Source: Azolla caroliniana (lineage: Eukaryota; Plantae; Polypodiophyta). From it: a stretch of 64,000 nucleotides of DNA. This document shows positions 25,561 through 59,582 of the stretch, one piece after another. Position numbers and translations under genes: made by a program. The stretch spans positions 12,214,001-12,278,000 of the forward strand of contig JBHGNT010000015.1 of NCBI GenBank assembly GCA_043228905.1, read 5' to 3'. Position 1 is the stretch's first letter. Each line of letters begins with the position of its first letter. Below the pieces are notes generated by a model. That model was not told where the DNA came from and did not search any database. It was given only the letters and a program-made list of their open reading frames with translations.

Positions 25561-26557
25561 TGGCATGCAAGGAGGCGTTGTCGCGATAACGCTCGTGCGT
25601 GGTACTATGTACTCGAGCGGGACCACAGAGTTCTTAGACCAAGGAGTCAGCAAGGTGGGGGAAGATCGGAGATTGACCTTTGTCGAAGACGGCACCTTGT
25701 CGGGCTAAGGTTTGTCGACCTTTGGGCTCGTCGACCTTTGGGCTTGTCATGCTTTGGGCTCATCAACCTTTCGCACTCAATGACCTTTCTTGTCGAACAA
25801 ACTAGACAGGGAAAGGACGACTACCACGATATTGGTGGGTTTATACAAACTAGACAAGGATATCTTACAACATTAAGGGTTACAACAATTAAAGACAAAC
25901 TACCACGATACCGGTGGGTTTATACAAATGATCATACGATTAGAATACGAACGAGAACAAAGCAATTGAAGGGATGGCTAAACGATTCCAGTGAAGGTGA
26001 GTCTAGTGGCCGTTGAGACTTCGACTAACTCTGTTGGCTACATTGCCATGCATCGGATTATTGCCCCCTTCCTTTGATGCCGCCAACATATAGTGTTCTC
26101 TGTGGTGGAGAAGATGATCGAACTTCAGAAATAGTCGTAGGAAGATAAGCTCAAAGTGGAAGAAGAAACCCAAACCCAAAACTCTAGAGTAAGGAGAAGA
26201 ATAGAAAACAAACCCTCACAAGACCTAAGGCTACAAGGCAAAAGAAACCCTAGACGTTGACAAAAAGAAAAGGAAACCCTAAACTTTCTTACTAAGACGA
26301 TAAAGGAGGAGAAGAAGTCAAGCCCAAAACCCCTAAGTCCTCTAGTAAGTTGAGGAGAAGTAGAAGAAAAAAAAAAGAAGCCCTAACGGTCCACATCAAA
26401 CAACAAAAACGGTACCCAAAATAAACTTCCTTCTCTTCCTTTTGTAGAGAAAAAGAGGAGTCTATTTTCGGCATTAAATGCACTTATTCCCCTCCTTTCT
26501 TCGAAAAAGGAAAGAGAATAAATAACCTTTTATTCACGTTGCACTGGTAGAGATTTG

Positions 26558-26979
26558 TGTTGGAGGGTGGCAGCTCCAAACCTGCACTCTCTTTCATCTT
26601 TATTATCTCTGTACCACATTCTCTCTCTTCCCAAATTCTTTTCTCTCTAGAATCTGCAATGCTTTAAATGCCTTTTGTCTCTTCCACTTTTTCCAAGATA
26701 TTCCCTTTTTTTATTCCTAGTTTATTGTACCTGTTTGGTAGTACAAGAGTCTCTTAACTACCAAACAACCATTCCCAATTTTGTATAAATAGGCTTATAC
26801 CAGCCTCTTTTGTAATGAGATTATTTTCTGCTGCTACTTAGAAACATGCACAACTCTTTGGCTATGTCTCTGCTCTTTGCAACCATTTTTTCTACTACTG
26901 TCTAACAGCCTTCTCATAGCTTGGCTGTGTCTATTTTGTTCTAACTCTTCCGCTGCTTCTATTAACAGCTTTTCTCACA
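26558..26979 (+). mobile_element. Unrelated 422-bp solo LTR
   Basis: TGTTGG...CTCACA, 5-bp TSD ATTTG (26553-26557, 26980-26984), TATAAATA near 26784. Confidence 0.8.
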
Positions 26980-27346
26980 ATTTGAACTCTGCACCCCGAC
27001 AAGCCCATAGAATAGTTGTAACCACTAGGCTATTCACTCTTGTTTATTTTTATTTTTCTTTGTATACTTATCTTTTTGTAACGTGCGTGGACCTTCACCC
27101 CTAAACCCTAAACCCTCTGCTCTTTGCAACCATTTTTTCTACTGCTGTCTAACAACCTTCTCATAGCTTGGCTATGTCTATTTTGTTCTAACTCTTCCGC
27201 TGCTTCTATTAACAGCTTTTCTCACAATTTGAACTCTGCACCCCAACAAGCCCATAGAATAGTTGTAACCACTAGGCTATTCACTCTTGTTTATTTTTAT
27301 TTTTTTTTGTATACTTATCTTTTTGTAACGTGCGTGGACCTTCACC
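26868..27346 (+). repeat. Direct duplication (247-bp period) with CCCTAAA filler
   Basis: Copies 26868-27099 and 27115-27346 are nearly identical, with CCCTAAACCCTAAACCC at the junction. Confidence 0.9.
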
Positions 27347-27395
27347 GTTTCTCTTTTTCTACCTTAGGCCACGCCACATCATGACAACACAACGT

Positions 27396-28320
27396 GGTCG
27401 AGATGTGGCATGGCCAAAGGGAGAAAAGTGGGAAAAACAAGGGTTCACTCACATCATTGAATATGTAAATAAGAAACATGAATATAATACATAAGTGTGA
27501 ATGGCCTAGTGGTTAGAGCCATTAAGTTAGGATAATGGGGTGCATAGTTCAAATCTCTGTCAATGTGAATAAAGGTTCACTTATTCCCTTTCTTTTTCGA
27601 AGAAAGAAGAGAACAAATGCATTTAATGCCGAAATAGGCACCTCTTTTTCTCTAAAAAGGGGGGAGAAGAGGGTTTATTTCAGGTCGCCCATTTTGTTGT
27701 TTGAGGGGATCATTAGGGGTTTATCTTCTTTTCTTCTTCTTTTTCTAGAGATCGTCATTTTTGGAGTGAAGGGTGTACTACTAGGGTTTGGCTATTATTA
27801 TTATTCTTGAGAGTTAGGGTTTTCACTTCTCTTTTGTGAGTATCTAGGGTTTCTTCCTCTCTACTCTAAACTTTAGGTCTTGTGGGGGTTTGATTTCTAG
27901 TCTTCTTCTTACTCTGAGAGTTTTAGGGTTTGGGTTTTAGGTTTCCTCTTCGGTTTCTTCTTCGACATTTCAGTGGTTATCTACTTGCGACTATTTTGGA
28001 GGTTCCGTCGTCTTCTCCACGGTGGAGAATGGTATATGTCAGCGATTTTGGGAGAAGGTTGGGCTAACTCGTACCCCAGTTGTTTAAGGGAGGACGTAAT
28101 GGCAAGAGAGCTACTCCGATTCGAGGCAATGTGGTCGTCAAAGGTAGTCATGCTCAGCAGCCCACTATATTCACCTTCACCAGATACTCTTTAGCCCCCC
28201 TTATTGCTTGTTCCGTTGTCGTTTGTGTTTTAATCGAGTGGTCGATTTCATAAAAACCACCGAAATCGTGGTAGTTTGCCCTTAATAGTCGTAATCCTTC
28301 ATTTTGTAAGATATTCTTTG
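27396..28320 (+). mobile_element. 3'-truncated LTR of the same subfamily as 25579-27386, in inverted orientation
   Basis: Starts GGTCGAGATGTGGCATGG after ACGT. 27550-28320 aligns by eye to the reverse complement of about 25855-26555. Confidence 0.72.
27502..27556 (+). promoter_or_regulatory. tRNA-like Pol III internal promoter (A and B boxes) inside an LTR
   Basis: A box TGGCCTAGTGG 27502-27512, B-like AGTTCAAATCT 27546-27556. Homologous copies on minus at 27227-27279 and 26980-27032. Confidence 0.55.
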
Positions 28321-30400
28321 TACATTTTCCCCACATTTTTGTCTTAATCTCGTGTATAACCCCTCAGCAAGCAACCACACCAAGATGCAAAACCCCTCAG
28401 CAAGCAACCCTTATTTACGCGGAACCGACATATCATGCCACCAATGCACCAAGAACAAAATGGTCATAGCCATTGCCATGTCCATATAACTATATGTACT
28501 ATGCAAAGGTTCTTACATGTTTCCCTTGATCAGAATGCTCGTTTCGGAGATGCCCACAAAACTAGCCTAGGTCACATACAATTCTCCGACATCCCTTGCC
28601 AGTGACACAACCTCAACATTTCCCATACAAAAAGCCTTATACAATCATTGTGAGGGACGACCCCAACAGGCTGCTACCCACCACGAACCCATTTTGTGCT
28701 TCCCCTCTTAACCTCTCCACCCTCAATCCATTAACACCACTCACCCGTAGCTTTGCCACCATCTCACAGATCAGAGGTCAGTCGTTGCTGCTGCAGAACA
28801 CAAATCCGCCGCTACAATCTGCAGGTCACACAGATCAGTAATTGCTGCAGACCGTCAGACATAGATTGGCTACAGCAAACCAACGACTGGAAGTTGCAGC
28901 AAGCCGGTCTACAACCCCTCCCCCATCTCTTAGTATATAAAGTGTTAGAGAGAGTATATATTGTTACACTCTTTATTCTCTCTTTCCCTTTGCCCTTCTT
29001 TGCTACCATACCCCATTGGGGGGAGGGTTTAGGCCCTCATGACTCCACCCTTTCAACAGGTTGGAGATGAAATAAGACATTCTCAACTAGACCCCCATAT
29101 GAAAAGGTGTCTTTCCAATACATTACTTATCTTACGTTTGATTATGCAGCAGTATTGGACCTAGCTACATTTTAGCTAGTATTTCCTCATTGTACTACCT
29201 TCGGCATGCAAGCCTTAACTAGATTTGGGAGCTGTTACAGCTCATCGTCTTTTGTTCTACATGATTATATAAGTATCTCGGGTTCTTTGATTGCTATTCA
29301 TCCACATTGTTTCTGAGCATCAACATAATAACACTATTCTTTTTTACTGTTTCTGAGCATCCACATTGTTTGATCAATGCGATCATTCTTGTACTATTTC
29401 TCTTGTGTCATTTCCAATAGTAGATTGTCTCATGGTCGGAATTTCGGCCTTTAATAGATTAAAAATTATTTCTTTCTTTCCCTTGATGCACAAAAAGTAT
29501 CTTCTTTTATTCTATCCCAATCGCATAAATCTGGTTGATTTTCCCTATTTCCACCGTCAAATCTCTCTCCATATCTCCATGTATGCATTATCTTTTTGTT
29601 TCAGAAACCCTGGAGGGTTTACACATACATAAACATGTCTAATATGAGATTAAAAAAAAAAACTTCTTCCTTGGCATGGCTTTTCACACCGTAGCATCAA
29701 AGTCAGAAATCTGGGAAGAACCTAAGTTTGATCCTCACCAAGGGATCATCCCCATCCCATAGATCATATCATTGTCAGGTGGATGTTTAATAATATCTCC
29801 CCCTCTCCCTCATTTCATCTCTCTTTCTCCATCTCCCTCATCCATCACTCTCTCTCCCTCTCCCTCACTCGTCAGTCTTTCCATACACACAGAAATGAGA
29901 ACGATTTACTTTACCTGAATATCGCTGGCGATGTTCACGAGCGCCGTGATGTGCGGGAGAATGCGGAGCTTTGGGACGGATGGCAAAGTGTCGAGAAAGA
30001 AGGGAAACGTAACAAATCCACAGAGAGGCAGATGGAGTTTTGGTTGCTTGAAGAGGAGCAGCCTGCCATAGCCTAGCTTAGGGTAGGGTAGGGTCCACTC
30101 CCTCTCTGGCTACCACATATATGTATGTATGTATGTATGTGTGTGTATCTAAAGAGAGTCCTGTTTTTCTTCTCCTCCTCCTCTTCTCTTTTTGAGGTAC
30201 ACAAACTCTCTAGGTTTTGAGACCTACACCTGGGTCCTGGACCTTCCCCCCTCCTGCCATTTCTGCTTACTTTATACATGACATGTACATAGTTACTCGA
30301 TGACCGGCTAGGGCATCTGCACTTACTTATAGTTAACCAATGGCCGGCAAGTACATACCCTTAGGTCCCATGGACACCGAGAGAGACTGTCGCCTGCCTC

Positions 30401-30919
30401 TACCAATCGGCAACAACTAAACCAAACACCGCGAAACCGCAGCTTAACGGTTTAAGCAGTTCAGTTTCGGGGTTTACCAGTTCGGTTCGAGCCTTTATCG
30501 ATTTAACGGTTTTCAATTTTAAAGGTTTGAAACCGCGGTTCAAACATTTTAAACGGTTTGACGGTTTAGGATTGACACTCGATAATTTTCTTAACTATTT
30601 TTTTGAACATTTTAAGCCTAATTTTGATCTTTTTGAGGAAAATCTTTAAATTTTAATAAAATTGAAATATCCAAAAATTTTAATTTTTTAAAATAAAAAT
30701 GTGAAATTTTGAAATTTGACCTAACGTAAAAACCAAAACCGAACCGCGAAAGCGTGGTTGTAACGGTTTAAAGGTTTGAAAGATTCTAATACCGTTTCGT
30801 TCGAGCTTGAATTTTTTGTAATAGTTCGGTTAAAATAGTTTTGTAGTTTGGTTCAATTCAGTTTTTAACGGTTTGAGTTTGATACTCTCGAACCAAACCA
30901 AACCATTGCTAATTGTTAC
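30401..30919. mobile_element. hAT-type MITE with AACCG-rich subterminal repeats
   Basis: Imperfect TIRs TACCAATCGGCAA / TAACAATTAGCAA, 8-bp TSD CCTGCCTC / CCTACCTC, many AACCG/CGGTT motifs. Confidence 0.72.
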
Positions 30920-32005: not shown

Positions 32006-32371
32006 CAGTGTTGTAAGAATACTTAGTATACAATACACATATAATATGTATGCTAAGTATTCTAACTTTAAAAAAAAAACTTAGAATACGTATTTTACAG
32101 ATAAAATACGTATAATATTTAGAATGTGTGTAGAATACTTCAAATACATAGCATACATGTAATAAAATACATAAATACTTCTTAAAATTTCAAAGTTTTC
32201 TTTTTAGAAAAATACTTATTAATTTTTTTTTGAAATGTTAACTACTCATAAATACGTAGAATATATAGAATACGTGAAAAATTATGAAATGCCAGTTCTA
32301 AACATAGAAAACGTGTATTGTAAAACGTATTCTAAACGTAGAATACACATTTTTTCATTTTGAGAACTATG
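32006..32371. mobile_element. Probable MITE remnant (AATACGTA-rich)
   Basis: Weak TIRs CAGTGTT.. / CATAGTT.. and repeated AATACGT motifs. No convincing TSD. Confidence 0.35.
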
Positions 32372-32465
32372 AGAGAGAGAGGGAGGGATGGAGGGGCATC
32401 TCCGAAATTAAGAGAAAACGCAAGGCATATGGAGAAGGGTATCGTTTGGAATTAGGGTAAACACT

Positions 32466-32502
<37 letters not shown>

Positions 32503-33910: not shown

Positions 33911-33932
33911 GGAGGCGGCAGAAGAGCAGAAG

Positions 33933-42500: not shown

Positions 42501-42678
42501 GTAGTCCTTGGGGGTACGTGGGTTCGTATCTTGCTCTACGTTGTCGTGATGTGGTATGTCTAGTGCGAGAAAAACTCAAAAATTGAGGATCCACACACAT
42601 TTCACGAATACTTGTAAAAATGAAAATAAATAAACCTAGGTCACAATGGCATTGAGTGCATGTAGAGGGTTGCAAGTA

Positions 42679-42733
42679 GGATTTGAACCTTGCACCTCTA
42701 AGGTAAGAGGCAATTACCTTACCACTAAAGCTA
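42679..42733 (-). promoter_or_regulatory. tRNA-like Pol III promoter cassette in the G4 5' LTR (copy at 45684-45738)
   Basis: Minus strand: TAGCTTTAGTGG (A box), 32 nt containing a GCCTCT/AGAGGT hairpin, then GGTTCAAATCC (B box), with T-runs downstream. Confidence 0.65.
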
Positions 42734-43242
42734 CTACTAAGTGCTTTAGATGTTCTATATTTCTTTCTCATATTCAGTATTCCGTAGGAAACAAACGAAC
42801 AAAACCGTGTACACAAAACCACGGTTTTAAGCCCATGGTTTCCTGCATGTCACAAAGCAAAACTGTGTGCACATAAACCATGGCTCCAAGCCCATGGTTT
42901 TGTGCATGGACAAACCTATAAAACCCCTAGTACGGCTTGTGTAAGGGGGGGCTCAATATGATATGACCATCATCATCACCATCAATAATATAAGCTTCTA
43001 TTTCTTCTTCTTCGCATCTATCTTGTAATTATTTATCTACTTCTGAAAGTGTACAATCTTCAATCTTCTCAAGTGTAATAGGTCTTCCTCCAATCTTACA
43101 TTCACATCGTCCTCTTCTCAATACCTTGACGGACATCCTCCTTGGTCCAAGACCCCGGTGGTCCCGCTCAAGCAAAGCACGCTCGCACGCGCATCTTCGC
43201 GACATTTTTTTGTGAACCCGACGTGAAGAGCAGTAGGGGAGG

Positions 43243-45387
43243 ATGAAGCTGGACAAGGAATATCTAATGAAGGCAATGTCAAAGATGATGATAGAGTTTT
43301 CAAGAGAAGGGAAAACACGACATGCGGCCCAACAAGCCGTCGAAAGCATGATCAAGCGAGTCGGGTTTTTCGATGGAGGCAAAGTCCAAAAATTTCTAAA
43401 GGCCTACAATGCCGAAATGGATTCAAGAGGAGTGGAGGAAGCAATGAGGCTGGAGTACTTTTGTCGAGTGGTGGCCGAACCAATCTTCGAAGAGATTAAA
43501 GAGATTCAAAAAACTCACGATTCGTGGGTGTCCTTCAAAGAAGCTTTACGAGAGTCATATGGTTACGAAGAGCAAAAGGGACGAGGTCTGTATGAGTTTC
43601 ACGAATGGGTGTCATCGAGAAAGACCCACCAGAGTGCTATGCATGCATTCGTTGAGTTTGAGTATCGCTTCGCTCAACTCTCGGACCGGGATCGAAGATT
43701 GGTGGGGGTGAATAAAGTTCTGATGTTTGTAAAGTCAATCGATCGGAATGAAAGGAAGACCATTGGAATCCAACTCGAGGATGACAATGGTGAAAATGGC
43801 CTCACTGAGGATTGGGCCAAAGTGGAAAGGGTATGCTGACAACACGATAAGAGGGAGATGAGACTCTCATCGACAACAACACGACCCACAAGGGATGTTC
43901 AAAGGAGAATGGGATGTGGCAATAAAAACCCACTGAAGGAAGAAAGCTCGAAGAGGAAAGCTTCGAAAGAACTCAACATAGAAGCCTTGATGAGAGAGGC
44001 AATAATGAACTTAAAGGCACAAGTCGAGGTTGAAGAGAAGATGAAAACAAAACCGAGGAAAATGGTGATCGACGAAGAGGAGACCTCCTGACAAATGCAG
44101 ACTAATGGTACAGCCAATACGAAGGCCCAGGTTTGGTATGACAGTACCATGGGAGAAGGTGTGAAACAAGCCACCTTCTCGACTTATGGAGGAACGACGG
44201 TCGAGAGAAGGGCCGAAGACTCGAGAGCGGGAAATGCTGCTTTAAGAGTGGATGAGCATTTCAGAACACATGCTGTGTCCGAAATATCGAGTAATGAAGG
44301 TGCAAGCATGAGGGAAGCTTGCGTGATCAAGGGATGTAAAGAGTGCGAGGTCGACGTGATTGAGGCGGTAGCCACGAGAAACGACATCAAGTCGCAGATG
44401 GCTAAGGAAGAGTTCACGGCGGATGACCGTGTCGAGACTTTCCCAACATTTGATCTAGAGACTTGGGCAGTTGCGTCCGAGAGCCAACATGAGACCCAAG
44501 AGACGGAAAGTGGTGGGGAAGAAAATATTGAAGACAATGCGAATAACAACATTGAGCGAAAGATGGCTACGGATGAGAAGACGGTGACCGATGGTGTCGA
44601 GGTTCTCCCCACATTTCTTCCTGAGACTTCGGCAGTTGTGCCCGAGTGTCAACGTGAGACCGGAGAGACGGAAGGTGACGGCAAGAAATCGAAGGACCAA
44701 AGTGGCAATGAGGACGATGACCACAGACGAAGGGATCCCTCCACACCGGTTCCGAAGACTTCGGCAGTTGTGCTCGAGAGACAACATCAGACCGGAGAGA
44801 TGGAAGGTGGCAGCGAGGAGATGAGGGTCGAAGTCGGCGCATACAGAGGAACGGTTGCCAACAAGGAGACCAAAAACAAAGCTACAATAGAGTTCGATGA
44901 AGAGCCAAAGAGCGGCAAGAAAGGAAGAACCGGAATACAATCCGGATGGAAGATGACTCGGTTGGTATTCCGACCCGAACGGAAGCCGACCTGGACGAGA
45001 GTTGATCAACCAGGCCCGACCCAACTGAAAACCGGACAGAAACTAACCCGGACGAAAGTCGATCATCTAAGTCCGATTCGGCCGAATGCGAATCCGAACG
45101 AAGGCCGACCAAGCCAGAAGTTGATTGGTCGAGACCGATCCCGACAGAAGTTGAGCCGGCCTAGACAAAGGTCAAAGCAAACGAGCCGCAACATCCAGTC
45201 GAGGCCGTTGAGCATAAGGAAAGGCAAGCATGAGACGAGAAAGGATGATAAAGGAAAGTTAAGTGACCAAGGAGATGGCCGAGATGAAGGTGGCACATGC
45301 ACGAGGCATGAAGCGTTATGCTCGGGAGGAGCACAGGGAGCCATGACAACTAGACATGGCAATAAAAAAGGTGAGCGAATGATATGA
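43243..45387 (+). pseudogene. G4 Gag-like ORF with long repetitive extension (714 codons, two in-frame TGA)
   Basis: ORFs 43243-43839, 43858-44091 and 44095-45387 share a frame. N-terminal part aligns with G3 gag (GFFDG..YNAEM, VLMFVKSID, GLTEDW..V.RVC). Confidence 0.8.
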
Positions 45388-46295
45388 TGGATCGGATGGC
45401 AACGGCAGTTCGAAGTAGACGACAAAAAGACGGTGCAGACGAGGCACAAGAAAGGAGGAAATCAAACACCAACCACCTTTGACCCTTCCACATCACTCTT
45501 TTCTTCTTGGCACATACCAGAGGATGTGCGGTTTGGTGGGGGTGGATGTCGTGATGTGGCATGTTTAGTGCGAGAAAAACTCAAAAATTGAGGATCCACA
45601 CACATTTCACGAATACTTGTAAAAATGAAAATAAATAAACCTAGGTCACAATGGCATTGAGTGCATGTAGAGGGTTGCAAGTAGGATTTGAACCTTGCAC
45701 CTCTAAGGTAAGAGGCAATTACCTTACCACTAAAGCTACTACTAAGTGCTTTAGATGTTCTATATTTCTTTCTCATATTCAGTATTCCGTAGGAAACAAA
45801 CGAACAAAACCGTGTACACAAAACCACGGTTTTAAGCCCATGGTTTCCTGCATGTCACAAAGCAAAACTGTGTGCACATAAACCATGGCTCCAAGCCCAT
45901 GGTTTTGTGCATGGACAAACCTATAAAACCCCTAGTACGGCTTGTGTAAGGGGGGGCTCAATATGATATGACCATCATCATCACCATCAATAATATAAGC
46001 TTCTATTTCTTCTTCTTCGCATCTATCTTGTAATTATTTATCTACTTCTGAAAGTGTACAATCTTCAATCTTCTCAAGTGTAATAGGTCTTCCTCCAATC
46101 TTACATTCACATCGTCCTCTTCTCAATACCTTGACGGACATCCTCCTTGGTCCAAGACCCCGGTGGTCCCGCTCAAGCAAAGCACGCTCGCACGCGCATC
46201 TTCGCGACAACGTAGACGACATAGTTTTGCTCTTTAAGCGATCTAATTGATCTTGGATTGAATTTAATGATTGTACAATATGTGACAAAAATTAG

Positions 46296-46740: not shown

Positions 46741-47036
46741 GTAAAATAAATCTGTTTTGAACATGCATGCTCATTTTGTAAGAAATCAAGCAATAACACA
46801 AGAGATAGGAAGAAGGTAACAGGGAGAGAGAGATCAAGAAACTAACAATTGTATTTCTCACACCACATGAATAGTGGTTACAATGTGTATATATAAGAGA
46901 GAGGGTAGTTACAAAACGTTGTCGCGTTGTTACACGCGTGCGTGTAGAAGGGCGGGACCACGGGGGTCTCAGACTAGGGAAGAAGGGAAGCCAAGAAGAC
47001 GATTCCGGGTGCGTTCCGGAAGCAACCGAATGGGAG

Positions 47037-50021
47037 AGAAAGAAAGAAAGATGTATTAACGTCTTCTAAGGCCAAATTTTGCCCATGAGACAATTGGTTT
47101 ACAACAATAGAGTATTTATCCAGTCATCATAACTAAAAATAAAATTAAGTAAAAAAAATAGAACTTAAACTAAAAGAGTTCTAGTAGTGTACAATATGTA
47201 GTATACTCGAAAGTGACTATACACTAAGCCTAATTTTATTTCCACCCAAGCCTCTCGAAAAGAAGTGGGGGGTCAAAGGGTCTTGATGTGGGTGCCAATG
47301 TAGAGAGTGCCCTAGCCATGGCTTCTAGGCGGTGTAGCTCACGTTCCCTTATTTTCAATATTGCTTCCACATCACGTTGAGTTGCTTTGAAACCCGGCAC
47401 CCGAGGATGTCTGGTTCTTCTCTGGTTTTCTACCTCATCAATGGAAAGGCCGAGTGGTGCAAGTGTGTCGGCATTCGTTGTCTCCTCAGGTTCTTGAAAA
47501 ACTACATTTGTTACATGTTCGTGATCATTAGCAACATTATTGTCAACATTTTGTAATTTATTCTCTCTGTGTTGTTTTAGCTCTAGAATGTATTTGCCTA
47601 ATTTCTTTATATCTAGAGTATCTAATAGTTTGGGGAGGGTGGGAGACGGACCAAGTATGTCTTGGTATTTTGCCCTTATCTCGGCATAGGTTGGACACTT
47701 GCATGTAAAGTGGTACTCATCCTCTATCTCTATGTGACATAACCTACATATCCTTTCCTCCCTAGGGACTCCACTAGTACGGCCATTTTCAATCTCAAGT
47801 TGGTGAGATGATATTCTAAGTTGTCCAATGGCAACCCTTAGTGCATGTGGTAAGAATACATCTAGATATTTTGGCCGCGTGATAAAACCTAACTCAGAGA
47901 AGTGCATGAAGTGTTTCTTATAGTACGACATTTTAGATGGGAGTGGCTCTAGTGGGGTGATCCATTTACACCGAATGTAAATTTGCCATATTTCTTGGCG
48001 TATTACTTTATTGCGGTTCTCATGAGAGATTAAGGTGTTATCACTCGTGTGGTTGTACCTAAGGGGAGGTAGGTTATTAATGTCTAGACCATTCGCAAGA
48101 AGCCAAGTCACCATCATGCCATACCATGAGCTAGTATAGCCGGACTCATACAATGATCGAGAGGCCTTAAAGGCTTGATGAGATATTCTATCATGTGGTT
48201 GGCTATGTATCCTATCAATAAAGACTACAAGTTGAAAAAGTGCCTCTACTAGCATTGGGGGTAACGTGAACTCGGCCCTAATAATGTCATGTGGTACAGT
48301 CGATTTGCTTCGGAGTTGGCGTGATAGCATCATCACCAATGGTCTCTCTAATTGCATCCACATGAAGGATGGTAATCCTGGAGCCCAAACCGCTGATGCA
48401 TACATGAGGGAGGGGGTCACTAATGAGTCAAAGAGCCACCCTTTAGTCTGTGGCTCTTGAAAGTGTGCTTGGTGGCATTGTCTCTCTAGGAGTGAGAGGG
48501 ATGCATGTCCTCTCGTGAGTCTATCCTTCGCTGCCTGTGTCATCGAAAATTTACCTGAGCGGGCACTAAAAGTGACTCCGAGATATACGTACGATCCAAC
48601 CACCTCGACTGGGCTATGGGAGATAGTTAGGTGACACTTAGCTCTAACTTGGGCCGATGTGTGGAAGATAAGGACTTTCGTTTTCCCTAGATTCACTACC
48701 AATCCTCGTTGTACACAAAAGTCATCTAAGGCATTGAGGTGCCTCTGTAGGTCATGTTCGGATTCAGAGAGCAAAACTATGTCATCCGCATAGAGCAAGA
48801 TACGAACCTGCGTATCCCCAAGGACCACTCCGGTGCCTCCCTCACGAGCAATAAAATCTGTGATCTCATCAATGTAGATCCCAAAAAGCGTCGGTGATAG
48901 GGGGCAACCTTGTTTTACACCAATAGTGCTAGTGAAACGATTGGATAGGCCACCTGGGCATCGGACACACCCGGACACTTGTTCATATAGTGCGTAGATG
49001 GCCCATACCATATCATCTGGCATCCTCAAGCTTTTAAGTCGATCAGACAACCGATCTCTAGGGACTGTGTCAAAGGCTTTGCGGAAGTCCACAAAACAAC
49101 AATATAATCTCTTCTTGCGAGCCCTAGTTTGGTCAATTAGGCATCTAAGTGTGAAGATGTGATCAATAGTGGAGAAGGCTCGTCTAAAGCCAGCTTGTTC
49201 AGGTGCACGAAGGTTTAGGGTCTCCATGTAGTCGCTAAGCTCTGCTTCCATTACTGCACCATATAACTTAGCAAGGGTATGGCCTATCATAATGGTCCTA
49301 TATGTATTTGGGTCCATGGGGTCCCCCCCTTTATGTATGGGGGTCACTGTATTCATAGTCCACTGTGGTGGAAAACCCTCCGCAAGGGCACGATTGAAGA
49401 TTAGAGTTAGCAAGGGAGCTAGGCACTCTCTCGCATATATAATGTGTTCTGCTCGCAATCCTGTGTGGTCCATGAACTTCCTATGTTGTAATTTCTTTAT
49501 GACCTTCATGACCCTAGAGGTCGTGAAAAGTGTCCCCGTGGTAGGCTGGGGTGTGGAAGGCATTGGAAAAGGTGGTTGGTTTGGGATTTGGTAAAGTCTC
49601 TCTGTATATGTGTGCCAAGTTTCGGGATCTTCGATGGGTGTTTGTGGTCTTGGCTCCCGTAGTCTCTTCCATGCCGTGGCGCAATCGCTACTCATGAGCA
49701 TATGGTAGAGTTCCCAGTATTGGGATGCCTCCCACGCTCGTCTCTTACGACGTGTCATCTTACGCATTTCTTTGCGAGCTTGTGTGGAGGTAATACTACC
49801 ATTGAGTTGCGATACTATAAGTTGTCTATGTAGGTCCCTATAATCCTCGTCATACCATTTATTTTGTGGCATTGATCCTGATCTACCTTGATTTGAGTGT
49901 TTTGTATATGGGAAACTGCTAGCTGCTGCGGAGTGAAGGATGTGTGTGAGTTTTGTACTAAGGCTTTCTAACGGTAGAGAGGGATCAATGGAGGGGAGAT
50001 GGGCCTGAACATGTTGAGAGT
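47037..50021 (-). mobile_element. 5'-truncated LINE L-B (RTE-X-like) with (CTTT)n tail, inserted in the G5 3' LTR
   Basis: G5 LTR sequence stops at about 47037 and resumes at 50022. Tail reads AGAAAGAAAGAAAG on plus. No clear TSD. Confidence 0.9.
47236..50021 (-). CDS. Uninterrupted LINE ORF2 part: RT plus C-terminal Cys/His motif, endonuclease missing
   Basis: QAGFRR, FVDFRKAFD, GVKQGCPLSP, LLYADD, YLG, and SSHQLEIENGR..REERICRLC..EDEYHF..C. First in-frame ATG at 49872 gives 878 aa. Confidence 0.9.
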
Positions 50022-51429
50022 AGCGCGCACTTGACCCCGACTCACACCCATACACGCACACACCACGCCGACCCAACTCACGCCCTTATGTACAGAAATG
50101 GAGGTAAGAGAACACCAAAAACACCCGCACACTAACAAAGACACGGATATGCACAGACAAACGTAAATGTATATATAATAAGGGGAAGAATACATCCCCG
50201 GCTTCGAGCTGGACCAAGGTAGATTACAACAGTCGTCGGCTGCCAAGCCGCCGGTCGGGGAGCTCACGGGCTTGTTGCATTGAGCGGGGTCTTGCGCAGG
50301 AGACGAGCTGAAGCAAACCCTAAGCGAACGCGAAGGGGGGGGGGGGAGAAGAAGAAGAAGAAGAAGAAAAGAAGGAGCGAATGTAACTAACTCTAAATCT
50401 AACGGTATACCCTCTAACGCAAAATGGGCAACCCTTTCACAAAGGGCGCTCCCTTCATTTTATAGAACAAGGAGAGGGATGCGTTACAATGTGGGATAAA
50501 TCCCGACTTACATGGGATTCTCTGTCCCGACTTGACTCCTACTATTCACACGTTTATGCCAGGGTGAGTGCACATGGTGCACACCGCCGATTCTCTCGAT
50601 ATTCTCCGATTCCGCCTAGGGACGGTTTTCTCCACGACATCCGCCCCCACCTAACCGCGCATCCACCGGTATGCGCCAAAATAGACTTTTTGCTGGAGAA
50701 GACCGGCCCGTGCTTGCCCTTCGTCCTTCAGATCGTCATTCGCTTCAGACCGGTCCATCCTCGTGTCGCTTGCCACTCTGCAGGCTCATTTGTCCCGTCG
50801 ATGGGTCCTTCGCCGCGATCTCCGTAGTACGCGTACTTCCGCTGGCCCTTGTTCAGCCGTATGCACGCCCCGCTCTCCGCCGTATGCCCAATGTCCTCCA
50901 CTTGAGGAACGCTCATAGTGGCCCGCTTGGCCTTCGTCGACCATTCATGTTGACATGATTGCCGTCCCATGTTGTTTCGCATTGCCTTCGTCCTCTCGCC
51001 GCCACCTTCCTTCCCCATGGTCTTAAGTCGCCATGTCAGCTCGAACCGCCATGGTCTTTGAAACGGTGTGGAGGATCCTCCTTTGGCCTTCTATGCGCTA
51101 ACTCCGAACCGCGTAACTCGTCTCCGCGCTCGCCTTTCCGCTCCAGCACCTCCGTGTGCCGCATACCCTCGTCCGTTGTTTGGCACTGCCTGTGCCGCAC
51201 TCCGTCTCGTAGTCACGCTTCGATCCGGCCCGCTATGGTCACTTGCGAGACTCTTCTTCCGTCCTAGGTGTGCCTTTCCGGCCCGACACACCTCCCCGTG
51301 GCCGCCCCTACCAGCTCCTTCCGAAACCGTAACCAGTTGGTAAGGGTTTCGCACTTCGTCCGCCCCCGTCTTACCGACTCCCGATCCGCTATCTCGTGTT
51401 GCCGGATCCCATTCCTTGCCGTCACCGTC

Positions 51430-52620
51430 CTTCTCCCTAGGTCTCACGTTGCCACGTTGGCCGAACTGCCGGGGTCTCTGGATCGGTGTGAGGGTCCCAT
51501 AGGACCGGTCTTCATTTCGTTGCTTACCGAAATTTGGGTGTCTTTTGTTTGAGTCCCTCTTGGACTCTCCTCGTGTCTTCCGCATAGTCGGGTCCCGTTT
51601 CCCGCCGCCACCAGCCTTCTCCCTAGGTCTCACGTCGCCACGCTGGCCGAACAGCTGGGGTCGCCGGTCTGGTGTGGGGATCTCGTAGGACCGGACTTCC
51701 TTATGCCCGTGACCTTGCCGGTAGGTCTTTCAATTCGTAGCCGCTTCGCCGGCCTGATACCCTCTTTCTCCGCTTTCCGTCGTCCGATCACGTTCACCTG
51801 CCGCCACCGATCTCTCCTATAGGACTCATGCCGGCTCTCGGGCCGACCACCGGATCGGTGTGAGGATCTTTGTGGGACCTCGGTTTGCCCGCCTTGCCGC
51901 CGCCACTGTTCTTCACTCTAGGTCTCACGTCGGCTCTCGGGCCGACCGCCGGAGTCTCTAGAACCAGTGTGTGTAAGGTCGCCGCAGCACCACTCGCCGT
52001 CTGGTCACATTCACCTGCCGCCACCGACCTCTCCTATAGGACTCACGCCTGCACTCGGGCCGACAACCGGATCGGTGTGAGGATCTCCGTAGACCGCCCT
52101 CGTCCGTAGTTCTTCGCCTTCGTCCCCTCGCCGCCACCCTCAGTATCTTGGTCTTACGTCGACCGCGTCGCTGACTGCCGAAGTCTCTAGAACCGGTGTG
52201 AAGGATCATCCCCTGGCCTCCTATTTCTCTTCCTGACCCTGTCCCCGGTCGTTCTTTTCCGCATGCCGAGAGGGCGGTTTGCTCCGCACCCTCTCCTGTG
52301 GTACCGATGTACCGTGTCCTCGGCCTCTTCGTCCCTCCTGGAATGGTTATCCGGGAGTTCGCTCCACCCGGTTCTCATCCGGGTCCGTTGGTCATTCTCC
52401 GGATTGTTGGGTCCCGTTCTCCTGTCGCCACCGTCCTCTTCTATAGGACTCACGCTGACACTTGGGCCAATAGCCGGATCGGTGTGAAGATCTCCGTAGG
52501 ACCGGTCTTCGTTCTCCCCTTCATCCCTTGTACTTCTCTAGAACTCGTCGTTGCTCTCCTTCTCGCGTACCCGCCTCCATCTCCCATCTCTCTAGGTCTC
52601 ACATCGGCGCTCGTTGCCGG
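51430..52620 (-). repeat. Degenerate GC-rich modular repeats inside G5
   Basis: CTATAGGACTCA..CCGGATCGGTGTGA.GATCT at about 51815, 52033 and 52441. CTAGGTCTCAC at about 51437, 51623, 51918 and 52592. Confidence 0.7.
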
Positions 52621-53164
52621 CTGCCTGAGTCTCCAGATAAGACGTGGTGTTTCCGTCCTGTAATGATTTGCGGACGCTCGTTCGGGGTACCGCTCCCAAG
52701 CACGTTCGGTGAGAAGCATCTGGTCTGTGATCAACCAAGCCCCGCCTGGGCTTGATTCTCCAATGTCCAGAGTTTCGGCTCCGATGCCGACCTTGCCAGA
52801 CTCGTTATGAACCTTTGATCACTTCCCTTTCCAATTCCCGACCTTCGCTCGGTCGGTCTTTCTCCCCATGTAAAAGAGGGCGGCTCGTCCCGCACCCTCT
52901 CTCGTATCGGCACCTTCATGCCGTATCCGGTCCCGATCGAACAATCCACGACCGGATTACGCTCCACCCGTATCGGAGCGTCGCGTGGTTCGGTCCCCGG
53001 CCGGGTCGTTCCTTGGTCTCTTTGTCGACCTTTTCGCGGGCCATCTCCCATCCATCTTCGCTGGCATCGTGCCAGGACTCCCCGATACCGTCATCCTTCT
53101 CCTCGGTCTCATATGGGCATAAGGGCCTGAATGCCGAGTTCTCCGGAATCGGGTCCGAGGGCTT

Positions 53165-54373
53165 TCATCCGCTCCTTCCTCGTATCGTCTCGCCGGTGAT
53201 TCTCAGTCTCTCGCCGCCGCCTTCCTCCTCTTGGGACTCACGTGGGTACTCGGGCCCGACTGCCATCGTCTTGGGAGCAAGTGTGGGAAGACACGAGGAA
53301 TCGCCCGTCCATTTTACGCCCCTGTCCGTAGCCACCGGCTCTTTGTGGTCGGCGGTCGTCTCCTTACCGATCGCGCAAGCCCCGCCTGGGCTTGCTTCTC
53401 CACTGACCGAGGTTTCGGGCTGACACGCCCGACACCGCTGGTCCCAACGTTCCGATTCCGTGATCGGTATCTCGGCCTCTTCCTTGGCCGTTCTATCTCC
53501 GCAAGTCGAGAGGGCGTTTTGTTCCGCACCCTCTCCCATGGTACCGTGGTACCGTTCTTCCATCATCGCGCGGGGCAAGTCCGTCTCCTCGGCGTCGACT
53601 AGTGGCCTCGGTCTTTCCTCTTCCTCGAGCATCGCCTTGAGAGCCGCGTACGCTTTCGCAATCCTCGCCCCGAAGCCGAGCCTTGCAGACTCTCTTTGCC
53701 GTTCGGCCTCTTCTCGCTGTGATGGCACGCCGTCGCGCGCGTTCCTCTTAGCCTTCTCGGCTTGCTCGTCATCTAGCCGTTGGCACACCCTTCTGACCTT
53801 CGACCAGTCCTCTGTAATCCCATTCGCTCCGTCATCGTCTTCGAGCTCAATCCCGATGGCCTCTCGTTCCGCTTGGTCGATTGACTTCACGAACAACAGG
53901 ACTTTGTCCAGCCCCACCAAACCTTGTTCCCGCTCCGGGAACCGAGCAAGCCGTCGCTTGAACTCTTGGAACGCCTTCGTTGCACCCCAGTGGGTCTTTG
54001 CCGATGCTACCCACTGGTCGAAGTCGTGCCGTCCCTAGCTCTTCCGCCGTCCTCCATATGCCTGCAGGAGCGCCTCTTCAAAGGCCTCCCACGAACTATG
54101 AGCTTGTCGGAGCTCCTTCACTCTCGCGTGCATACGGACGACGACAGCCCGATAGAAGAACTCCAGCCTCAATGCTTCGTCCACGTCTCTCTCCTCCATT
54201 TCCGCATTGTAGGCTTCCAAGTAGAATGGGACCTTGTCCCCGTTGAACCGGCCGACTCTTTCGACCACGCATTTGACAACTTGCTGTGCCGACTCTCGTC
54301 TCATCACCACTCGTGCCGACTCCAACACCACTTCAGCCACCATCTCCGCGAGGTCGTCGTCTTCCGACTCCAT
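53165..54373 (-). pseudogene. G5 Gag-like ORF (in-frame stop at 54035)
   Basis: VGRFNGDKV..YNAEMEER..LRLEFF, VLLFVKSID and GITEDWSKVRRVC. Closest to the G4 ORF. Confidence 0.82.
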
Positions 54374-57300
54374 TCTCCCTTGCCACCCTTCACGTCGTGT
54401 TCACCAAATATGTCGCGTTGTTATGTGCGTGCGTGTAGAAGGGCGGGACCACGGGGGTCTCGAACTAGGGAAGAAGGGAAGCCGAGAAGACGATTCCGGG
54501 CGCGTTCCGGAAGCAACCGAACGGGAGAGAGAAAGAGAGAGAGCGCGCGCTTGACCCCGACTCACACCCACACACGCACACACCACGCCGACCCAACTCA
54601 CGCCCTTATGTACAGAAACGGAGGTAAGAGAACACCAAAAACACCCGCACACTAACAAAGACACGGATATGCACAGACAAATGTAAATGTATATATAACA
54701 AGGGGAAGAATACATCCCCGGCTTCGAGCCAGACCAAGGTAGATTACAACAGTCGTCGGCTGCCAAGCCGCCGGTCGGGGAGCTCACGGGCTTGTCACGG
54801 CGAGCGGGGTCTTTCGCAGGAGACGAGCTGAAGCAAACCCTAAGCGAACGCGAAGGGGGGGGGGAGAAGAAGAAGAAGAAGAAGAAGAAAAGAAGGAGCG
54901 AATGTAACTAACTCTAAATCTAACGGTATACCCTCTAACGCAAAATGGGCAACCCTTTCACAAAGGGCGCTCCCTTCCGTTTATAGAACAAGGAGAGGGA
55001 TGCGTTACAATGTGGGATAAATCCCGACTTTCATGGGATTCTTTGTCCCGACTTGACTCCTACTATTCACACGTTTATGCTAGGGTGAGTGCACATGGTG
55101 CACACCGCCGATTCTCTCAATATTCTCCGATTCTACCTAGGGACGGTTTTCTCCACGACAACATTTTTATAAAAGAGGGGTACTTTAGAAATTTCTTACT
55201 TTATTTCATAATATATTTTATTTTCCTACTAATATTATTTTTTATTTTTTATTCTAATACCCCCCATAACATAAAGAGTTTATTTTTCTTTATTGATCTT
55301 ACTAATACTAAGAGCAATTTTATTACAACAATTCCAATCCTTTTGTTATGGTACTGGCTTCGTAAAAAAATCAACCCACATTGTTGTAGTAGATGTGTAA
55401 TGTAAAGACATTTCTTTTGCTTCTACCAATTCTCGAATAAAATGATGCCGTGCTCTTATATGCTTACTTTGATCTGTGATCTTTGGATTGATAGCTAGCT
55501 TAATGCATGATTGATTGTCGCAAAATACTTTGACTTCATTATGCTTTATGATGTCGAGCTCTTCGATGATCGTCTTTATCCACAATCCTTCTTTTGCCGT
55601 TAATGCCGCTGCAACATATTCCGCTTCGGTACTAGAAAGAGCCACCAATACTTGACTTTTGGTTCTCCATGCAATTGCTCCATCGGCGAATGTGAAAACC
55701 ATACCAGATGTTGAGTGGAGGTATCAACACCCCCCCCCAATCGGAATGCGTCCAACCAACTAATGGTGTTTGGAGCCAACCACTAAGTTGGGACGAATTC
55801 CTAGATTGGAAAGACTTGTATGTTAGACCTGTGTCTTTAATGTATTGTAGATAACAAAGAACTTGCTTTAAAGCATTCCAATGAGCTACTCCGGGATTAT
55901 GCATAAATCTAGAAAGAAAACCAGCTGAGTAAGACAAATCCGGACGTGTACAACTCACAAGGTACCTTATACTTCCAAGGATTTGTCGATAAGGAAGTGA
56001 TTTCATGAGTTGCTCTTCTTCCACTGTCTTTGGACTATCATTGGATGATAGTTTGCATGGTACGGTCATTGGTGTTGCAATAGGTTTACAATCAGACATC
56101 TCGAACTTGTGAAGAATTTCTTCGATCAACTTACGTTGCGACATGGTAAGTGTGCCTTCCGTCCTATTCCTTGTTACCTTGATACCAAGGAATACTCTAG
56201 TGGTCCAAGGTCTTTGGCGGGAAACTTCTCCTTGAGTTGATTTATAATCTTTCACATTGAAGTAGTAGAGTTAGAGGCAATTGGCAAATCATCAACATAG
56301 ACACCAATGATTACATAGTCACTTCCTTCTTTACGAATGTAAAGATTTGGCTTGGCTTGAAGACGCCAAAAATTAATAGACATTCTCTTCATCCAGCACC
56401 CTATGCAAGAATGCCGTCTTGACATCCAATTGTTCGATCTCCAAATTCATGCTCACAGCAATGCTCAGAATAGTTCAGATGGATGTCATCTTCACGACAG
56501 GTGCTTGCGAATATTTCGTTGAAGTACTGAGGGGGACTTGATCAGGTAAATAGCTATGTACATCACCTTAGCCCAGTACAATTTCAGCATTTTAGCGTGA
56601 GAGAGCATGCTCCTTACTCTCTCCATGATTGTTCGATTCATCCTCTCTACAAGCCTGCTCAACTCAAGGGTCTTTGGAACAATGTATTTGATTCGAATAC
56701 CCTGGGCCTTGCAGTATTCCTCAAAACTGCCCTTTATATTCGCCACCATTGTTAGTTCGGATAGTCTTTAGCTTCCGACCCGACTCTTGTTCGGTTCTTG
56801 CCTATAACTCCTTGAACATTGACAGTACCTTATCCTTCGACTTCAGTACAAAGGCCCATGTCTTCTGATATGGTTGTCAATAAATGTCACGAAGTACTGT
56901 CCACCTCGATGTGATGGAACATCTACATAGCACACATCTGTGTGCACTAGTTCTAGTGTAGCTTCTCTTCTTCTTGGTGGTCTTGTGTGGAATGCTGCCT
57001 TGTTCTACTTTCCGAATAAGCAATCGACACACTTCTCCAAGTGTACTCCTTTCACTTTTGGGAGAAGTTCCTGGTCGGCCAGGATGTGCATTCCTTTTTC
57101 ACTCATGTGGCCGAGCCTCTTATGTCATAACTCTCCACTCAAGTCGGCTGCCACATTCACTTCCGACTTGCACAATCGGGCATGCATCATATATAGTGTG
57201 CCCTCTTTTTGTGCTCGTGCCATTATGAGGTTTCCACCGCAAAACTTCCACTTGCCATTTCGGAAACTACCAATGTAGTCTTCATCATCCAATCTTCCAG

Positions 57301-58728
57301 TTGATATCAGATTCAATCTGATATTGGGGACATGTCGAGCTTCCCTAAATGTTAGTTGACAACTAGTTGACGTCGTCAGGCACACCTTCCAATGCCGGCT
57401 ATCTTGCACTCTCCATGATCTCCCATCTTTACATAACCATGATGAACGACTAGGTAAGTCGAAAAACACTCTCTCGATGGAGTTATGTGGAATGATGCAC
57501 CCGAGTCGATTACCCAGGTGCACTCTTCGCTTGCAAGATTTATGCTTGCCTGCTCACAAATGAACAAGATCTCTTTTGCACTCGTAGCTACGGTAGATGT
57601 GCCCTTTTTCTTCAGGAATCTTGCTGGGTTCAACATTTTTGCTGACACTCTTGTCCTTCTTGAGGTGTCGGCAGCACTTTTGAAAGTGTCCAAGCTTTCC
57701 ACAATTTTAAAGCATGTTAGCTTACTTCTGGACTTGGATTTGGCATGAGACTTTCCTCTCCTTGGTGAACTTCTTTGACGGTTTCTTCCTCTACCGGTAT
57801 GTTGAGTCAAATTTGACTACGATTTGACCAGGCCACCCTTGTCCTTCCTTCTAGTCTCCTTTTTCAAGATGCTTGTCTTTACCGCTTGTAGAGACAAGTT
57901 CTCTTTTTGGCCCGAGGTGTTGAGAGTCACCACTAGATTCTCCCAGTTGTCCGGTAGGGTACACAATAGTAGAATGGCGTGCATTGCATTTTCAAGGGGA
58001 AACATGGTTGTAGCAAGTTGATTCACATACCCCATGAATGTGCTATTGTGCTCGACTATGCTTTCCCCGTCCCTGTATTCCAGTCTTGCCATCTTTTTCA
58101 TCAAAGATGTTTTGTTGAGGGTGTTCTTCCTCTCATATAAGCTTGACAACTTCTGCCACATCTCATAGGCATTTGTGTCATTTGCCACATGTTGAAGGAC
58201 ACTTACATCGACACACTATTTGATGGTGGCCACCACATTCGTATTTAGGAGTTTCCATTCAGACTCCAATACCCTCATGGGTATTTCGACTTTGTTGATT
58301 GGTTCGTATAGGTTTTTGACTATGAGAATGTCCTCCATCTTTATCTTCCAGTCCACATAGTTCTGAGCGTTTAGAATTATCATGCTTGGGAAGCCACTCA
58401 CACCTCCTTCCATCTTTAACCTTCTGCTCTGATACTAGTTTGTAGAGTTTCACTCCCTTTAGATTATGAGAAGAACTGATTGTGTAATTGACATTATCAC
58501 GGAAAAAACAGAAAACACACCAAATACACGGAATACAAAGTTTTATGTGGAAACCCTAAACGGGGAAAACCATGGGAGAAACAAAGATCCACTATACAAG
58601 AGAATACAGAAAACGGTTACAATCTTCTCTGAAACACACAAAGGATAACCCGCTTAGGGTTCTTAGCAAGTTCGCAGAACTTTGCTATTGCTCTCTCACG
58701 CTTACACTCTCTCTCTTCTCTGTCACGT

Positions 58729-59582
58729 TGTCGTGCCTTTCGGCTCCGGATCGTTGCGTGAGTCGGGTGGGAACCGCTGGGGTTTTGGACTAGGAGGAAA
58801 GAAAATTCTAAGGCAATTAAGAATATGAAATATATTATAAGAAAGAAAGATATGAAAAACTCGTGAATCCCACGAGTATAGTGTATTAGTGAGTACTCAA
58901 ATTAAGAGAGAAAAATAGTTAGCAAACTCGTGGATCCCATGATTATATTATATTAATCATCCCTTGTAAAAATAATCAACAACCTCTATACATCTTTCTC
59001 TCTTCCTTATATAGTCTTGGAAGAGTCTAAGTTTATCCCATGCAAGCATCATGCTTTTCCTATCTTTAGTTTTCATGCACACTGCATGTGCATGATTAGC
59101 TTTCTATCTCATCTTTTCTTTTAACTCGAGTGTCTATGCATGAATAACTTTTTGTACCATGCATGTCTAGAATATTTACATGGGATAAAGTTTAGTATAA
59201 CTTTAAAATTCATAATACGCTAGTATAATGGTAAGGCTTAAAAATCGTTAACATGGAGGTACAGGGTTCGAATCCTGCTCTATGCATGTAACAATCTTTT
59301 TTTCTATTTACAAATTTGTCTCTTCATCCGGTTCTCACTGGTTCCTCCTTACCAATTCCATCCTTCATCCGGTTCCTCCTTACCAATTCCATCCTTCATC
59401 CGGTTCTCACCAGGTCTTCCTTACCGGTTCCTCCTTCCGGTTCTCACCGGGTCTTCCTTACCGGTTCCTCCTTCCGGTTCTCACCGGTGTCATGCCTTTC
59501 GGCTCCGGATCGTTGTGTGAATCGGGTGGGAACCACCGAGGCTTTGGTATTTTTCATGTAGTGTATGATTCACACTACGACA
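58729..59582 (-). mobile_element. 854-bp solo LTR of the Trp-primed Gypsy group, TSD ACGT
   Basis: TGTCGTG...TACGACA flanked by ACGT (58725-58728, 59583-59586). The U5-like GGGAACCGCTGGGGTTTTGGAC motif sets the orientation. Short tandem repeats at 59320-59487. Confidence 0.85.
59221..59303 (+). promoter_or_regulatory. tRNA-like Pol III cassette within the solo LTR
   Basis: A box TAGTATAATGG 59221-59231, consensus B box GGTTCGAATCC 59265-59275 within a CAGG/CCTG stem, T7 run at 59297-59303. Confidence 0.68.

What the first reader, a model, noticed from the sequence alone, without database searches (positions are those of the whole stretch)
25579..59303. tRNA-like Pol III cassettes carried in LTRs of the non-autonomous/solo group
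Seen: A-box/B-box pairs at tRNA spacing lie about 100-360 bp from the LTR 5' end in three different LTR types. They are in both G4 LTRs (42679-42733 and 45684-45738, antisense), the solo LTR (59221-59275, antisense, followed by T7) and the 25579/27396 pair (sense). Presence in both G4 LTRs shows the cassette is replicated with the element. I saw none in the G1-G3 or G5 LTRs. Known: Cassandra TRIMs carry 5S-derived Pol III promoters in their LTRs. Inference: this could be a tRNA-derived analogue that gives Pol III transcription, a short antisense RNA, or TFIIIC-based insulation from silencing.
Basis: partly seen in the sequence, partly recalled or inferred. Interest (0 to 1): 0.7.

Follow-up and report, generated by a model that had tools for sequence, protein, structure and literature searches.

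The report
Backward tRNA promoters inside retrotransposon ends
Several families of a plant jumping-gene lineage carry a decayed tRNA-gene promoter in their end repeats, mostly pointing backwards about 180 bases upstream of a predicted TATA box, so it likely acts as a docking site that keeps the element's own promoter open and not as the promoter itself, a variant of the tRNA-bearing 'Helenus' elements described in 2024.

Summary
The A/B boxes are real. The window has 6 hits, all spaced 44 nt and all in LTRs of a Phygy-like Ty3 lineage (shuffles 0.35). Three corrections: 25579/27396 are two inverted, head-to-head LTR relics, not an LTR pair; one B-box there is split by an insertion; G5 is non-autonomous yet lacks the cassette. 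In 122 related metagenome loci the cassette recurs in several further LTR families, with 0 hits in 27.6 kb of flank. Boxes and spacing persist while the middle, flanks, anticodon, acceptor stem and terminator drift. Most copies are antisense, 144-238 bp upstream of a TATA-like motif, so they cannot drive the genomic RNA. A tRNA analogue of Cassandra is already published (Helenus, PMC10886601), but those are short TRIMs with sense cassettes (101 sense motif hits, 0 antisense). Best reading: a likely selected TFIIIC docking or boundary site in a shuffled U3 module (0.45); neutral passenger 0.3. No expression or binding data. The scan found Helenus-like cases on other DNA before. New variant of a known kind.

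The parts
42542..46209 (+). G4: young non-autonomous Phygy-like Ty3 element (663-bp LTRs, 4-bp TSD ACGT, no pol), inserted in a LINE RT gene
42542..43204 (+). G4 5' LTR
42679..42733 (-). tRNA-derived A-box/B-box cassette, antisense, in U3 of the G4 5' LTR
42916..42924 (+). TATA-like motif of the predicted Pol II promoter, 184 bp from the cassette's A-box; CATGCA-type repeats lie between
   Evidence: function inferred
43205..43226 (+). PBS (3 substitutions vs family); tRNA-Trp assignment recalled, consistent with Phygy in PMC6317226 supplement
43237..43839 (+). short gag-like ORF (37% to G3 gag, 49% to G5 gag)
44092..45387 (+). acidic repeat ORF shared with other pol-less relatives (L061, L048, L076, L028)
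45530..45546 (+). polypurine tract, preceded by a conserved hairpin
45547..46209 (+). G4 3' LTR
45684..45738 (-). antisense A/B cassette in the G4 3' LTR, identical to the 5' copy
58729..59582 (-). solo LTR (854 bp, TSD ACGT on both sides)
59221..59275 (+). A/B cassette with consensus boxes, antisense to its LTR, T7 run at 59297-59303
25579..27386 (-). LTR relic A (no TSD pair)
27225..27279 (-). sense cassette of LTR A, B-box cut by the insertion
26978..27032 (-). second copy of the same broken cassette, made by the 247-bp tandem duplication
26558..26979 (-). 422-bp TG..CA insertion with 5-bp TSD inside A's B-box (likely a solo LTR of another family)
27396..28318 (+). LTR relic B, head-to-head with A, 3' end missing
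27502..27556 (+). sense cassette of LTR B (B-box with 2 mismatches)
46920..55160 (-). G5: non-autonomous relative without cassette (counter-example); 3' LTR split by a LINE

Best explanation
The cassette is a tRNA-derived A-box/B-box pair built into the LTRs of several Phygy-like Ty3 families, and it likely works in cis as a TFIIIC docking site that keeps the LTR's predicted Pol II promoter, about one nucleosome length downstream, open or shielded from silencing. Shown: tRNA-gene geometry, location in LTRs, mostly antisense orientation, a near-constant distance to a TATA-like motif, copying into both LTRs, sharing between otherwise different LTRs, and loss of the cloverleaf. Inferred: TFIIIC binding, any Pol III transcription, and the effect on chromatin. 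The genomic RNA would be made by Pol II; short outward Pol III RNAs (88-125 nt predicted for G4 and the solo LTR) would be by-products. The module likely moves between families by recombination during reverse transcription.
For: Across 10 family representatives, pairwise identity is 0.72 in the A-box and 0.84 in the B-box, against 0.31-0.39 in the flanks and most of the middle (0.57 in the 11 nt before the B-box); the distance from the A-box anchor to the B-box is 38-39 nt in 16 of 16 copies. Within families the boxes are 86% and 91% identical against 79-80% elsewhere (9 pairs). Acceptor stems pair at 20 of 70 positions against 28 in shuffles, and the anticodon varies, so only the promoter-bearing parts persist. 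In a second organism, contigs pile up on the B-box part of the solo-LTR cassette (depth 5-8 thousand vs about 150 upstream), and their loose ends show A-box-like motifs with different middles. A-box to TATA-like motif is 144-238 bp in 11 copies. The cassette plus its downstream 200-300 bp is shared between LTRs with different ends. It is tandem-duplicated in L064/L068 and L072, and L064, L068 and L076 also carry a sense copy 72-76 nt after the TATA-like motif. TFIIIC binds the B-box and often lies at chromatin boundaries (PMC8136502, passages; mouse and yeast context).
Against: There is no binding, chromatin or expression data. Most cassettes were found by their boxes, which inflates box conservation, and the within-family pairs are not independent, so p=0.001 overstates the case. 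In the solo-LTR contig pile-up only 14 of 271 positions vary at 10% or more in run X1 (my count), so the lack of change at fixed box positions is not significant. Decayed copies exist: L020, LTR A (insertion), LTR B (2 mismatches), L044 (B-box C to T) and one L064 A-box. Of 36 loci with a called full LTR, the strict scan hit only 6, so the lineage replicates without it. A and B carry it in the sense orientation. TFIIIC boundary activity was not shown for plants in anything I read.
Confidence: 0.45

Rival explanations
1. Neutral passenger: heads of tRNA genes or SINEs were captured a few times and ride along with a successful U3 module, doing nothing.
For: Many families lack it. Decayed or interrupted copies occur. 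Orientation and position vary. Kojima notes that 'not a few LTRs' in Repbase contain partial tRNA sequence (PMC10886601 section 3.1). Box conservation is partly an ascertainment effect.
Against: Boxes and spacing persist where flanks and middle are at background identity. There is no SINE body or tail: shared sequence fades about 25 nt after the B-box and continues on the upstream side instead. There are 0 hits in 27.6 kb of flank and 1 weak non-LTR hit in 99 kb downstream. Only 1-4% of contigs from organisms A and B run on unlike.
Confidence: 0.3
2. The cassette is a Pol III gene whose 90-130 nt antisense RNA is the functional product, for example a decoy or regulator.
For: The solo LTR, B and G4 would give 88, 103 and 119-125 nt RNAs. 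The upstream region is AT-rich (0.72-0.77) and the downstream T-rich. T-arm pairing is above shuffle (29 of 40 vs 22), though this is partly fixed by the box letters.
Against: The terminator position is not conserved (first T4 at 5-210 nt, none within 400 nt in L081). The transcribed middle is not conserved, and the predicted folds differ.
Confidence: 0.1
3. It acts at the RNA level: the antisense copy in the 3' U3 of the genomic RNA pairs with the D- and T-loops of a host tRNA, like a bipartite primer site (Ty3 precedent recalled, not checked in a paper).
For: It would explain the antisense bias and the conservation of loop sequences common to all tRNAs. The cassette leans to pol-less families.
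Against: Sense copies exist. The middle tracks no single tRNA (anticodon loops vary). Nothing beyond the generic T-loop core matches what the PBS shows of the primer.
Confidence: 0.08
4. It is the element's own Pol III promoter, as in Cassandra and as proposed for Helenus.
For: Same A/B anatomy as Helenus. Sense copies in L037/L046/L110 have a TATA-like motif 44-45 nt upstream, and L129 has a 278-bp LTR with a sense cassette.
Against: It is antisense in G4, the solo LTR and six other groups. G4 is 3.7 kb with nine T>=4 runs on the sense strand. A TATA-like Pol II motif is retained.
Confidence: 0.05

Closest known systems
Helenus (TRIMp3), Kojima 2024, PMC10886601 (parts 1-4 of 6 of the main text read, plus passages and supplement searches)
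   Same: Non-autonomous LTR elements whose LTRs carry a decayed tRNA-derived sequence conserved at boxes A and B, with PBS, PPT and TSD, many solo LTRs and no working tRNA.
   Different: Helenus are 311-1263 bp, non-coding, with sense cassettes (101 sense vs 0 antisense motif hits in its supplement). The only plant member is a 120-bp-LTR element of Selaginella with a 5-bp TSD. Here the elements are about 3-4 kb with ORFs, the LTRs are 0.6-1.8 kb with a TATA-like motif, the cassette is mostly antisense in U3, and the TSD is 4-bp NCGN.
Cassandra (5S-derived TRIM; as described in PMC10886601, original paper not read)
   Same: A Pol III internal promoter carried in both LTRs.
   Different: Cassandra is 5S-derived, short, and transcribed from the 5S part in the element's direction.
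Phygy clade of non-chromovirus Ty3/gypsy (PMC6317226; passages and one supplement row)
   Same: 4-bp NCGN target duplication (100% of Phygy), tRNA-Trp PBS (81%), no chromodomain hit in the G1 and G3 pol ORFs; named relatives come from a liverwort and a fern.
   Different: The passages read do not mention tRNA-like LTR cassettes or pol-less derivatives. G1 and G3 are about 7 kb against 7.7-10 kb for Phygy.
tRNA-derived SINEs as chromatin boundaries (mouse B2, PMC8136502; passages)
   Same: An A/B-box element upstream of a Pol II promoter, proposed to act as a boundary.
   Different: B2 is a free SINE with body and tail. Here only a head-like part remains and it travels inside the LTR. In B2's tested cases the boundary lowered neighbouring expression.

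Membership tests
Helenus/TRIMp3 | tRNA-derived sequence with conserved A and B boxes in the LTRs | tested here: met
Helenus/TRIMp3 | two LTRs, PBS, PPT, TSD; no RT | tested here: met
   G4; L012 has a complete 1.9-kb interior without a pol hit and L072 a 2.3-kb one
Helenus/TRIMp3 | TRIM size (under about 1.3 kb) and no protein | tested here: not met
   G4 is 3,668 bp with gag-like and acidic ORFs
Helenus/TRIMp3 | cassette oriented to transcribe the element | tested here: not met
   antisense in G4, the solo LTR and most loci; Helenus supplement 101 sense vs 0 antisense motif hits; sense in A, B and a few loci
Helenus/TRIMp3 | Pol III transcription | not testable with these tools
   no RNA holder listed; also unvalidated for Helenus itself
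tRNA-derived SINE | head plus body and 3' tail with own TSD, dispersed outside LTRs | tested here: not met
   no shared body or tail; 0 hits in 27.6 kb flank; contigs rarely run on unlike; no whole-genome check possible
functional tRNA gene | cloverleaf with paired acceptor and anticodon stems | tested here: not met
   ARAGORN and Rfam negative; acceptor pairing 20 of 70
Phygy (Ty3/gypsy) | 4-bp NCGN TSD and tRNA-Trp PBS | tested here: met
   the tRNA-Trp identity of the PBS is recalled
Phygy (Ty3/gypsy) | placement in the Phygy clade by RT/RH/INT phylogeny | not tested
   no REXdb references at hand; only homolog list

The most novel reading that the evidence does not exclude
A plant Ty3 lineage has repeatedly recruited tRNA-gene promoters as portable TFIIIC barriers. 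Outward-pointing A/B cassettes bracket the LTR's Pol II promoter on one or both sides and shield it from silencing, and pol-less elements gain most from this.
Probability: 0.25. Interest if true: 0.72.

Novelty: new variant of a known kind. Interest (0 to 1): 0.42.

Why it matters
If the cassette binds TFIIIC and protects the LTR promoter, it would be a built-in anti-silencing device of a plant retrotransposon and a natural multi-copy test of whether tRNA-type boxes act as chromatin boundaries in plants. It would also widen TRIMp3 from 'borrowed promoter' to 'borrowed Pol III factor site'. If neutral, it is mainly an annotation note: these LTRs are a source of tRNA-like and SINE-like false calls.

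Tried and rejected
No whole genome is held for this window, so there is no genome-wide census. ARAGORN found 0 genes in the window and in 16 loci. Rfam gave no tRNA match at E<=10 in the window or in 10 loci. Two viral-contig scans were uninformative: 11 loci from a 16-base pattern, taken as chance and left out without inspection, and 0 hits. No RNA holder was listed, and run X23 (RNA by guess) laid 0 contigs on the solo-LTR cassette; neither is evidence either way. I considered that the cassette sits in a foldback or MITE with inverted flanks: flank similarities were weak (p 0.01-0.95) and I did not pursue it. The G4 variant table shows 40 of 106 rows, so it could not be used to count box changes. 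The 3-4-fold depth peak on the G4 cassette first looked like a free SINE; it is better explained by sharing among LTR families, and the solo-LTR cassette shows no such excess in organisms A and B. Pfam found nothing at curated cut-offs for the long ORFs of the pol-less elements. The 422-bp insert has no relative in the window or loci. Seven literature searches listed no paper on antisense tRNA-type cassettes in long plant LTRs. I judged most hits by title and abstract start only, subscription journals are largely missing, Repbase was not searchable, and the supplements of the sugar-beet preprint were not seen.
Full report
Setting. The window is nested plant transposon DNA: copia remnants, LINEs, and five Ty3/gypsy elements G1-G5 with TGTCG..CGACA LTRs. 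They insert into NCGN targets with 4-bp duplications and share one PBS. I recall that PBS as tRNA-Trp. Both traits match the Phygy clade (4 bp NCGN 100%, tRNA-Trp 81%; PMC6317226 passages and one supplement row). Named homologs of the G3 RT region come from the liverwort Riccia (54-68%) and the fern Adiantum (68%), and unnamed metagenome proteins reach 86%. The host is therefore likely a non-seed land plant. No genome is held.

Observation. A scan with recalled A/B consensus patterns gives 3, 4 and 6 hits at 1, 2 and 3 mismatches, against shuffle means of 0, 0.2 and 0.35. All are spaced 44 nt and all lie in LTRs of this lineage, which cover 9,664 of 64,000 bp. The six hits are four independent copies. 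G4 is 42542-46209 with LTRs differing at 2 of 663 sites, a short gag-like ORF and no pol. The '25579/27396 pair' is not a pair. It is a minus-strand LTR (A) head-to-head with a truncated plus-strand LTR (B), 67% identical. Both carry the cassette in sense at the same place. A's B-box is cut by a 422-bp TG..CA insert with a 5-bp TSD and was then duplicated. G5 lacks pol and lacks the cassette, against the title's grouping.

Relatives. A scan of metagenome contigs for LTR end plus PBS, which is blind to the cassette, returned 122 loci out of about 270 estimated; 42 of them hold only about 300 bp of flank. Most share one accession series, their hosts are unknown, and collapsed repeats may be chimeric. 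With LTR starts picked by hand, a scan at spacing 42-45 gave 9 hits in 6 of 36 full LTRs (29.4 kb) and 0 in 27.6 kb of upstream flank. It gave 3 hits in 99.4 kb downstream of the PBS (2 in the 3' LTR of L072, 1 weak in L086) and 3 in 50.1 kb where no start was called (L034 and L062, in LTR-homologous sequence; L060, weak). Shuffles gave 0-0.1. Antisense cassettes occur in G4/L081, L012, L034/L044/L062, L064/L068 (two in tandem), L072 (two), L076 and the solo-LTR family, where L020 is decayed. A second, more degenerate sense type lies after the TATA-like motif in L037/L046/L110, L060, L129, L130, L064/L068 and L076 (profile scores 12.5-37 bits, best shuffled 9.8). L037 carries gag and the start of pol, and L044 a full-length gag 57% identical to that of pol-bearing L042. 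The cassette is therefore not confined to non-autonomous elements. The antisense type was seen in 0 of 8 pol-bearing and 4 of 10 pol-less families (p=0.09; families grouped by hand, four undetermined groups left out).

What is conserved. Across 10 family representatives, identity is 0.72 (A-box), 0.84 (B-box), 0.57 (11 nt before B) and 0.31-0.39 elsewhere. Within 9 related pairs it is 86% and 91% against 79-80%. Selection of copies by their boxes and non-independent pairs inflate both figures. Acceptor stems are not paired (20 of 70 vs 28 shuffled), anticodon stems are not above shuffle overall (29 of 50 vs 26), and anticodon loops vary. D- and T-stem pairing is above shuffle but partly fixed by the box letters. 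Terminators are not conserved. There is no SINE body: shared sequence ends about 25 nt past the B-box and runs 200-300 bp the other way, into a CATGCA-rich block ending at a TATA-like motif 144-238 bp from the A-box. This block is shared by LTRs with different ends, in line with the modular reshuffling reported for non-autonomous elements (10.64898/2026.03.01.708851, passages).

Run contigs. On the G4 LTR, summed depth peaks 3-4-fold at the cassette in four runs, and 2-11% of contigs run on unlike. On the solo-LTR cassette, depth in organisms A and B does not exceed the upstream flank and 1% run on unlike. In organism C (17% run on unlike) nearly only the B-box part aligns, with loose ends showing A-box-like motifs and other middles. 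This argues against a large free SINE family and fits box conservation, but contigs give no copy numbers.

Mechanism. An antisense cassette in U3 points out of the element and cannot make the genomic RNA. G4's sense strand also has nine T>=4 runs. What persists is the part that TFIIIC reads (A and B boxes recruit TFIIIC: PMC13437025 passages), at about one nucleosome length from the predicted Pol II promoter. I therefore favour a cis docking or boundary role (0.45), by analogy with B-box boundaries (PMC8136502 passages). Binding and effect are inferred, not shown. A neutral passenger stays plausible (0.3), given decayed copies and the many families without it. A functional short RNA (0.1), tRNA pairing on the genomic RNA (0.08) and a Cassandra-like promoter (0.05) fit less well.

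Known kin and novelty. The tRNA analogue of Cassandra was published as Helenus (PMC10886601; parts 1-4 of 6 read), and that paper also notes partial tRNA sequence in 'not a few' Repbase LTRs. These elements fail two Helenus features that I tested: size and coding state, and orientation. They resemble Helenus in anatomy but are not members. Seven searches listed no report of this antisense, promoter-flanking form; Repbase and most subscription journals were not covered. Earlier scan notes describe Helenus-like cases in other genomes, one of them an antisense relic in a Ty3 tail. Look-ups by place and by sequence showed none on this cassette among the notes listed for this genome (8 of 45 and 8 of 19 shown). 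Verdict: real feature, new variant of a known kind, function untested; interest 0.42.

Noticed in passing
window 45500-45546, 39577-39623; L012, L026, L033, L048, L061, L072, L076, L091: A 6-8 bp hairpin lies directly before the PPT in most of the 20 PPT-like matches folded, with letters varying on both sides of the stem between families.
   Followed up: partly
L012:847-2715(+), L072:830-2767(-), L070:834-1589(+): Pol-less elements carry long ORFs (623, 646, 252 aa) right after the PBS with no Pfam hit and no similarity to gag; L072 and L070 share an N-terminal stretch.
   Followed up: partly
window 44092-45387; L061, L048, L076, L028: A class of pol-less elements fuses a gag fragment to a long acidic repeat ORF that stays open over 430-690 aa.
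   Followed up: partly
L037, L046, L110 (about 250 nt from the LTR 3' end): A pol-bearing family has sense A/B-like cassettes, tandem in L046, with a TATA-like motif 44-45 nt upstream; the best candidates for true Pol III units.
   Followed up: partly
L129; L108: L129 has a 278-bp LTR with a sense cassette between a PPT and a PBS; L108 has a very short interior (PBS to PPT about 170 bp), TRIM-like.
   Followed up: no
window 27100-27115: Plant telomere-type repeats sit as filler at the junction of the 247-bp duplication in LTR A.
   Followed up: no
window 25579-28318: Two related LTRs lie head-to-head 9 bp apart, next to 152-bp tandem repeats of copia-like sequence.
   Followed up: partly
window 41297-42538 and 48791-50020: Two copies of one LINE (88% identical): one is interrupted by G4, the other interrupts the 3' LTR of G5 and keeps a 949-aa frame.
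   Followed up: no
window 59485-59547 vs 58726-58788: The solo LTR carries a second copy of its own 3'-terminal 60 bp near its 5' end, plus 37-72 bp tandem repeats.
   Followed up: no
window 30420-30910 and 32020-32350: AT-rich stretches with repeated AAACCG-type and AATAC-type motifs that look like non-autonomous DNA transposons (seen).
   Followed up: no
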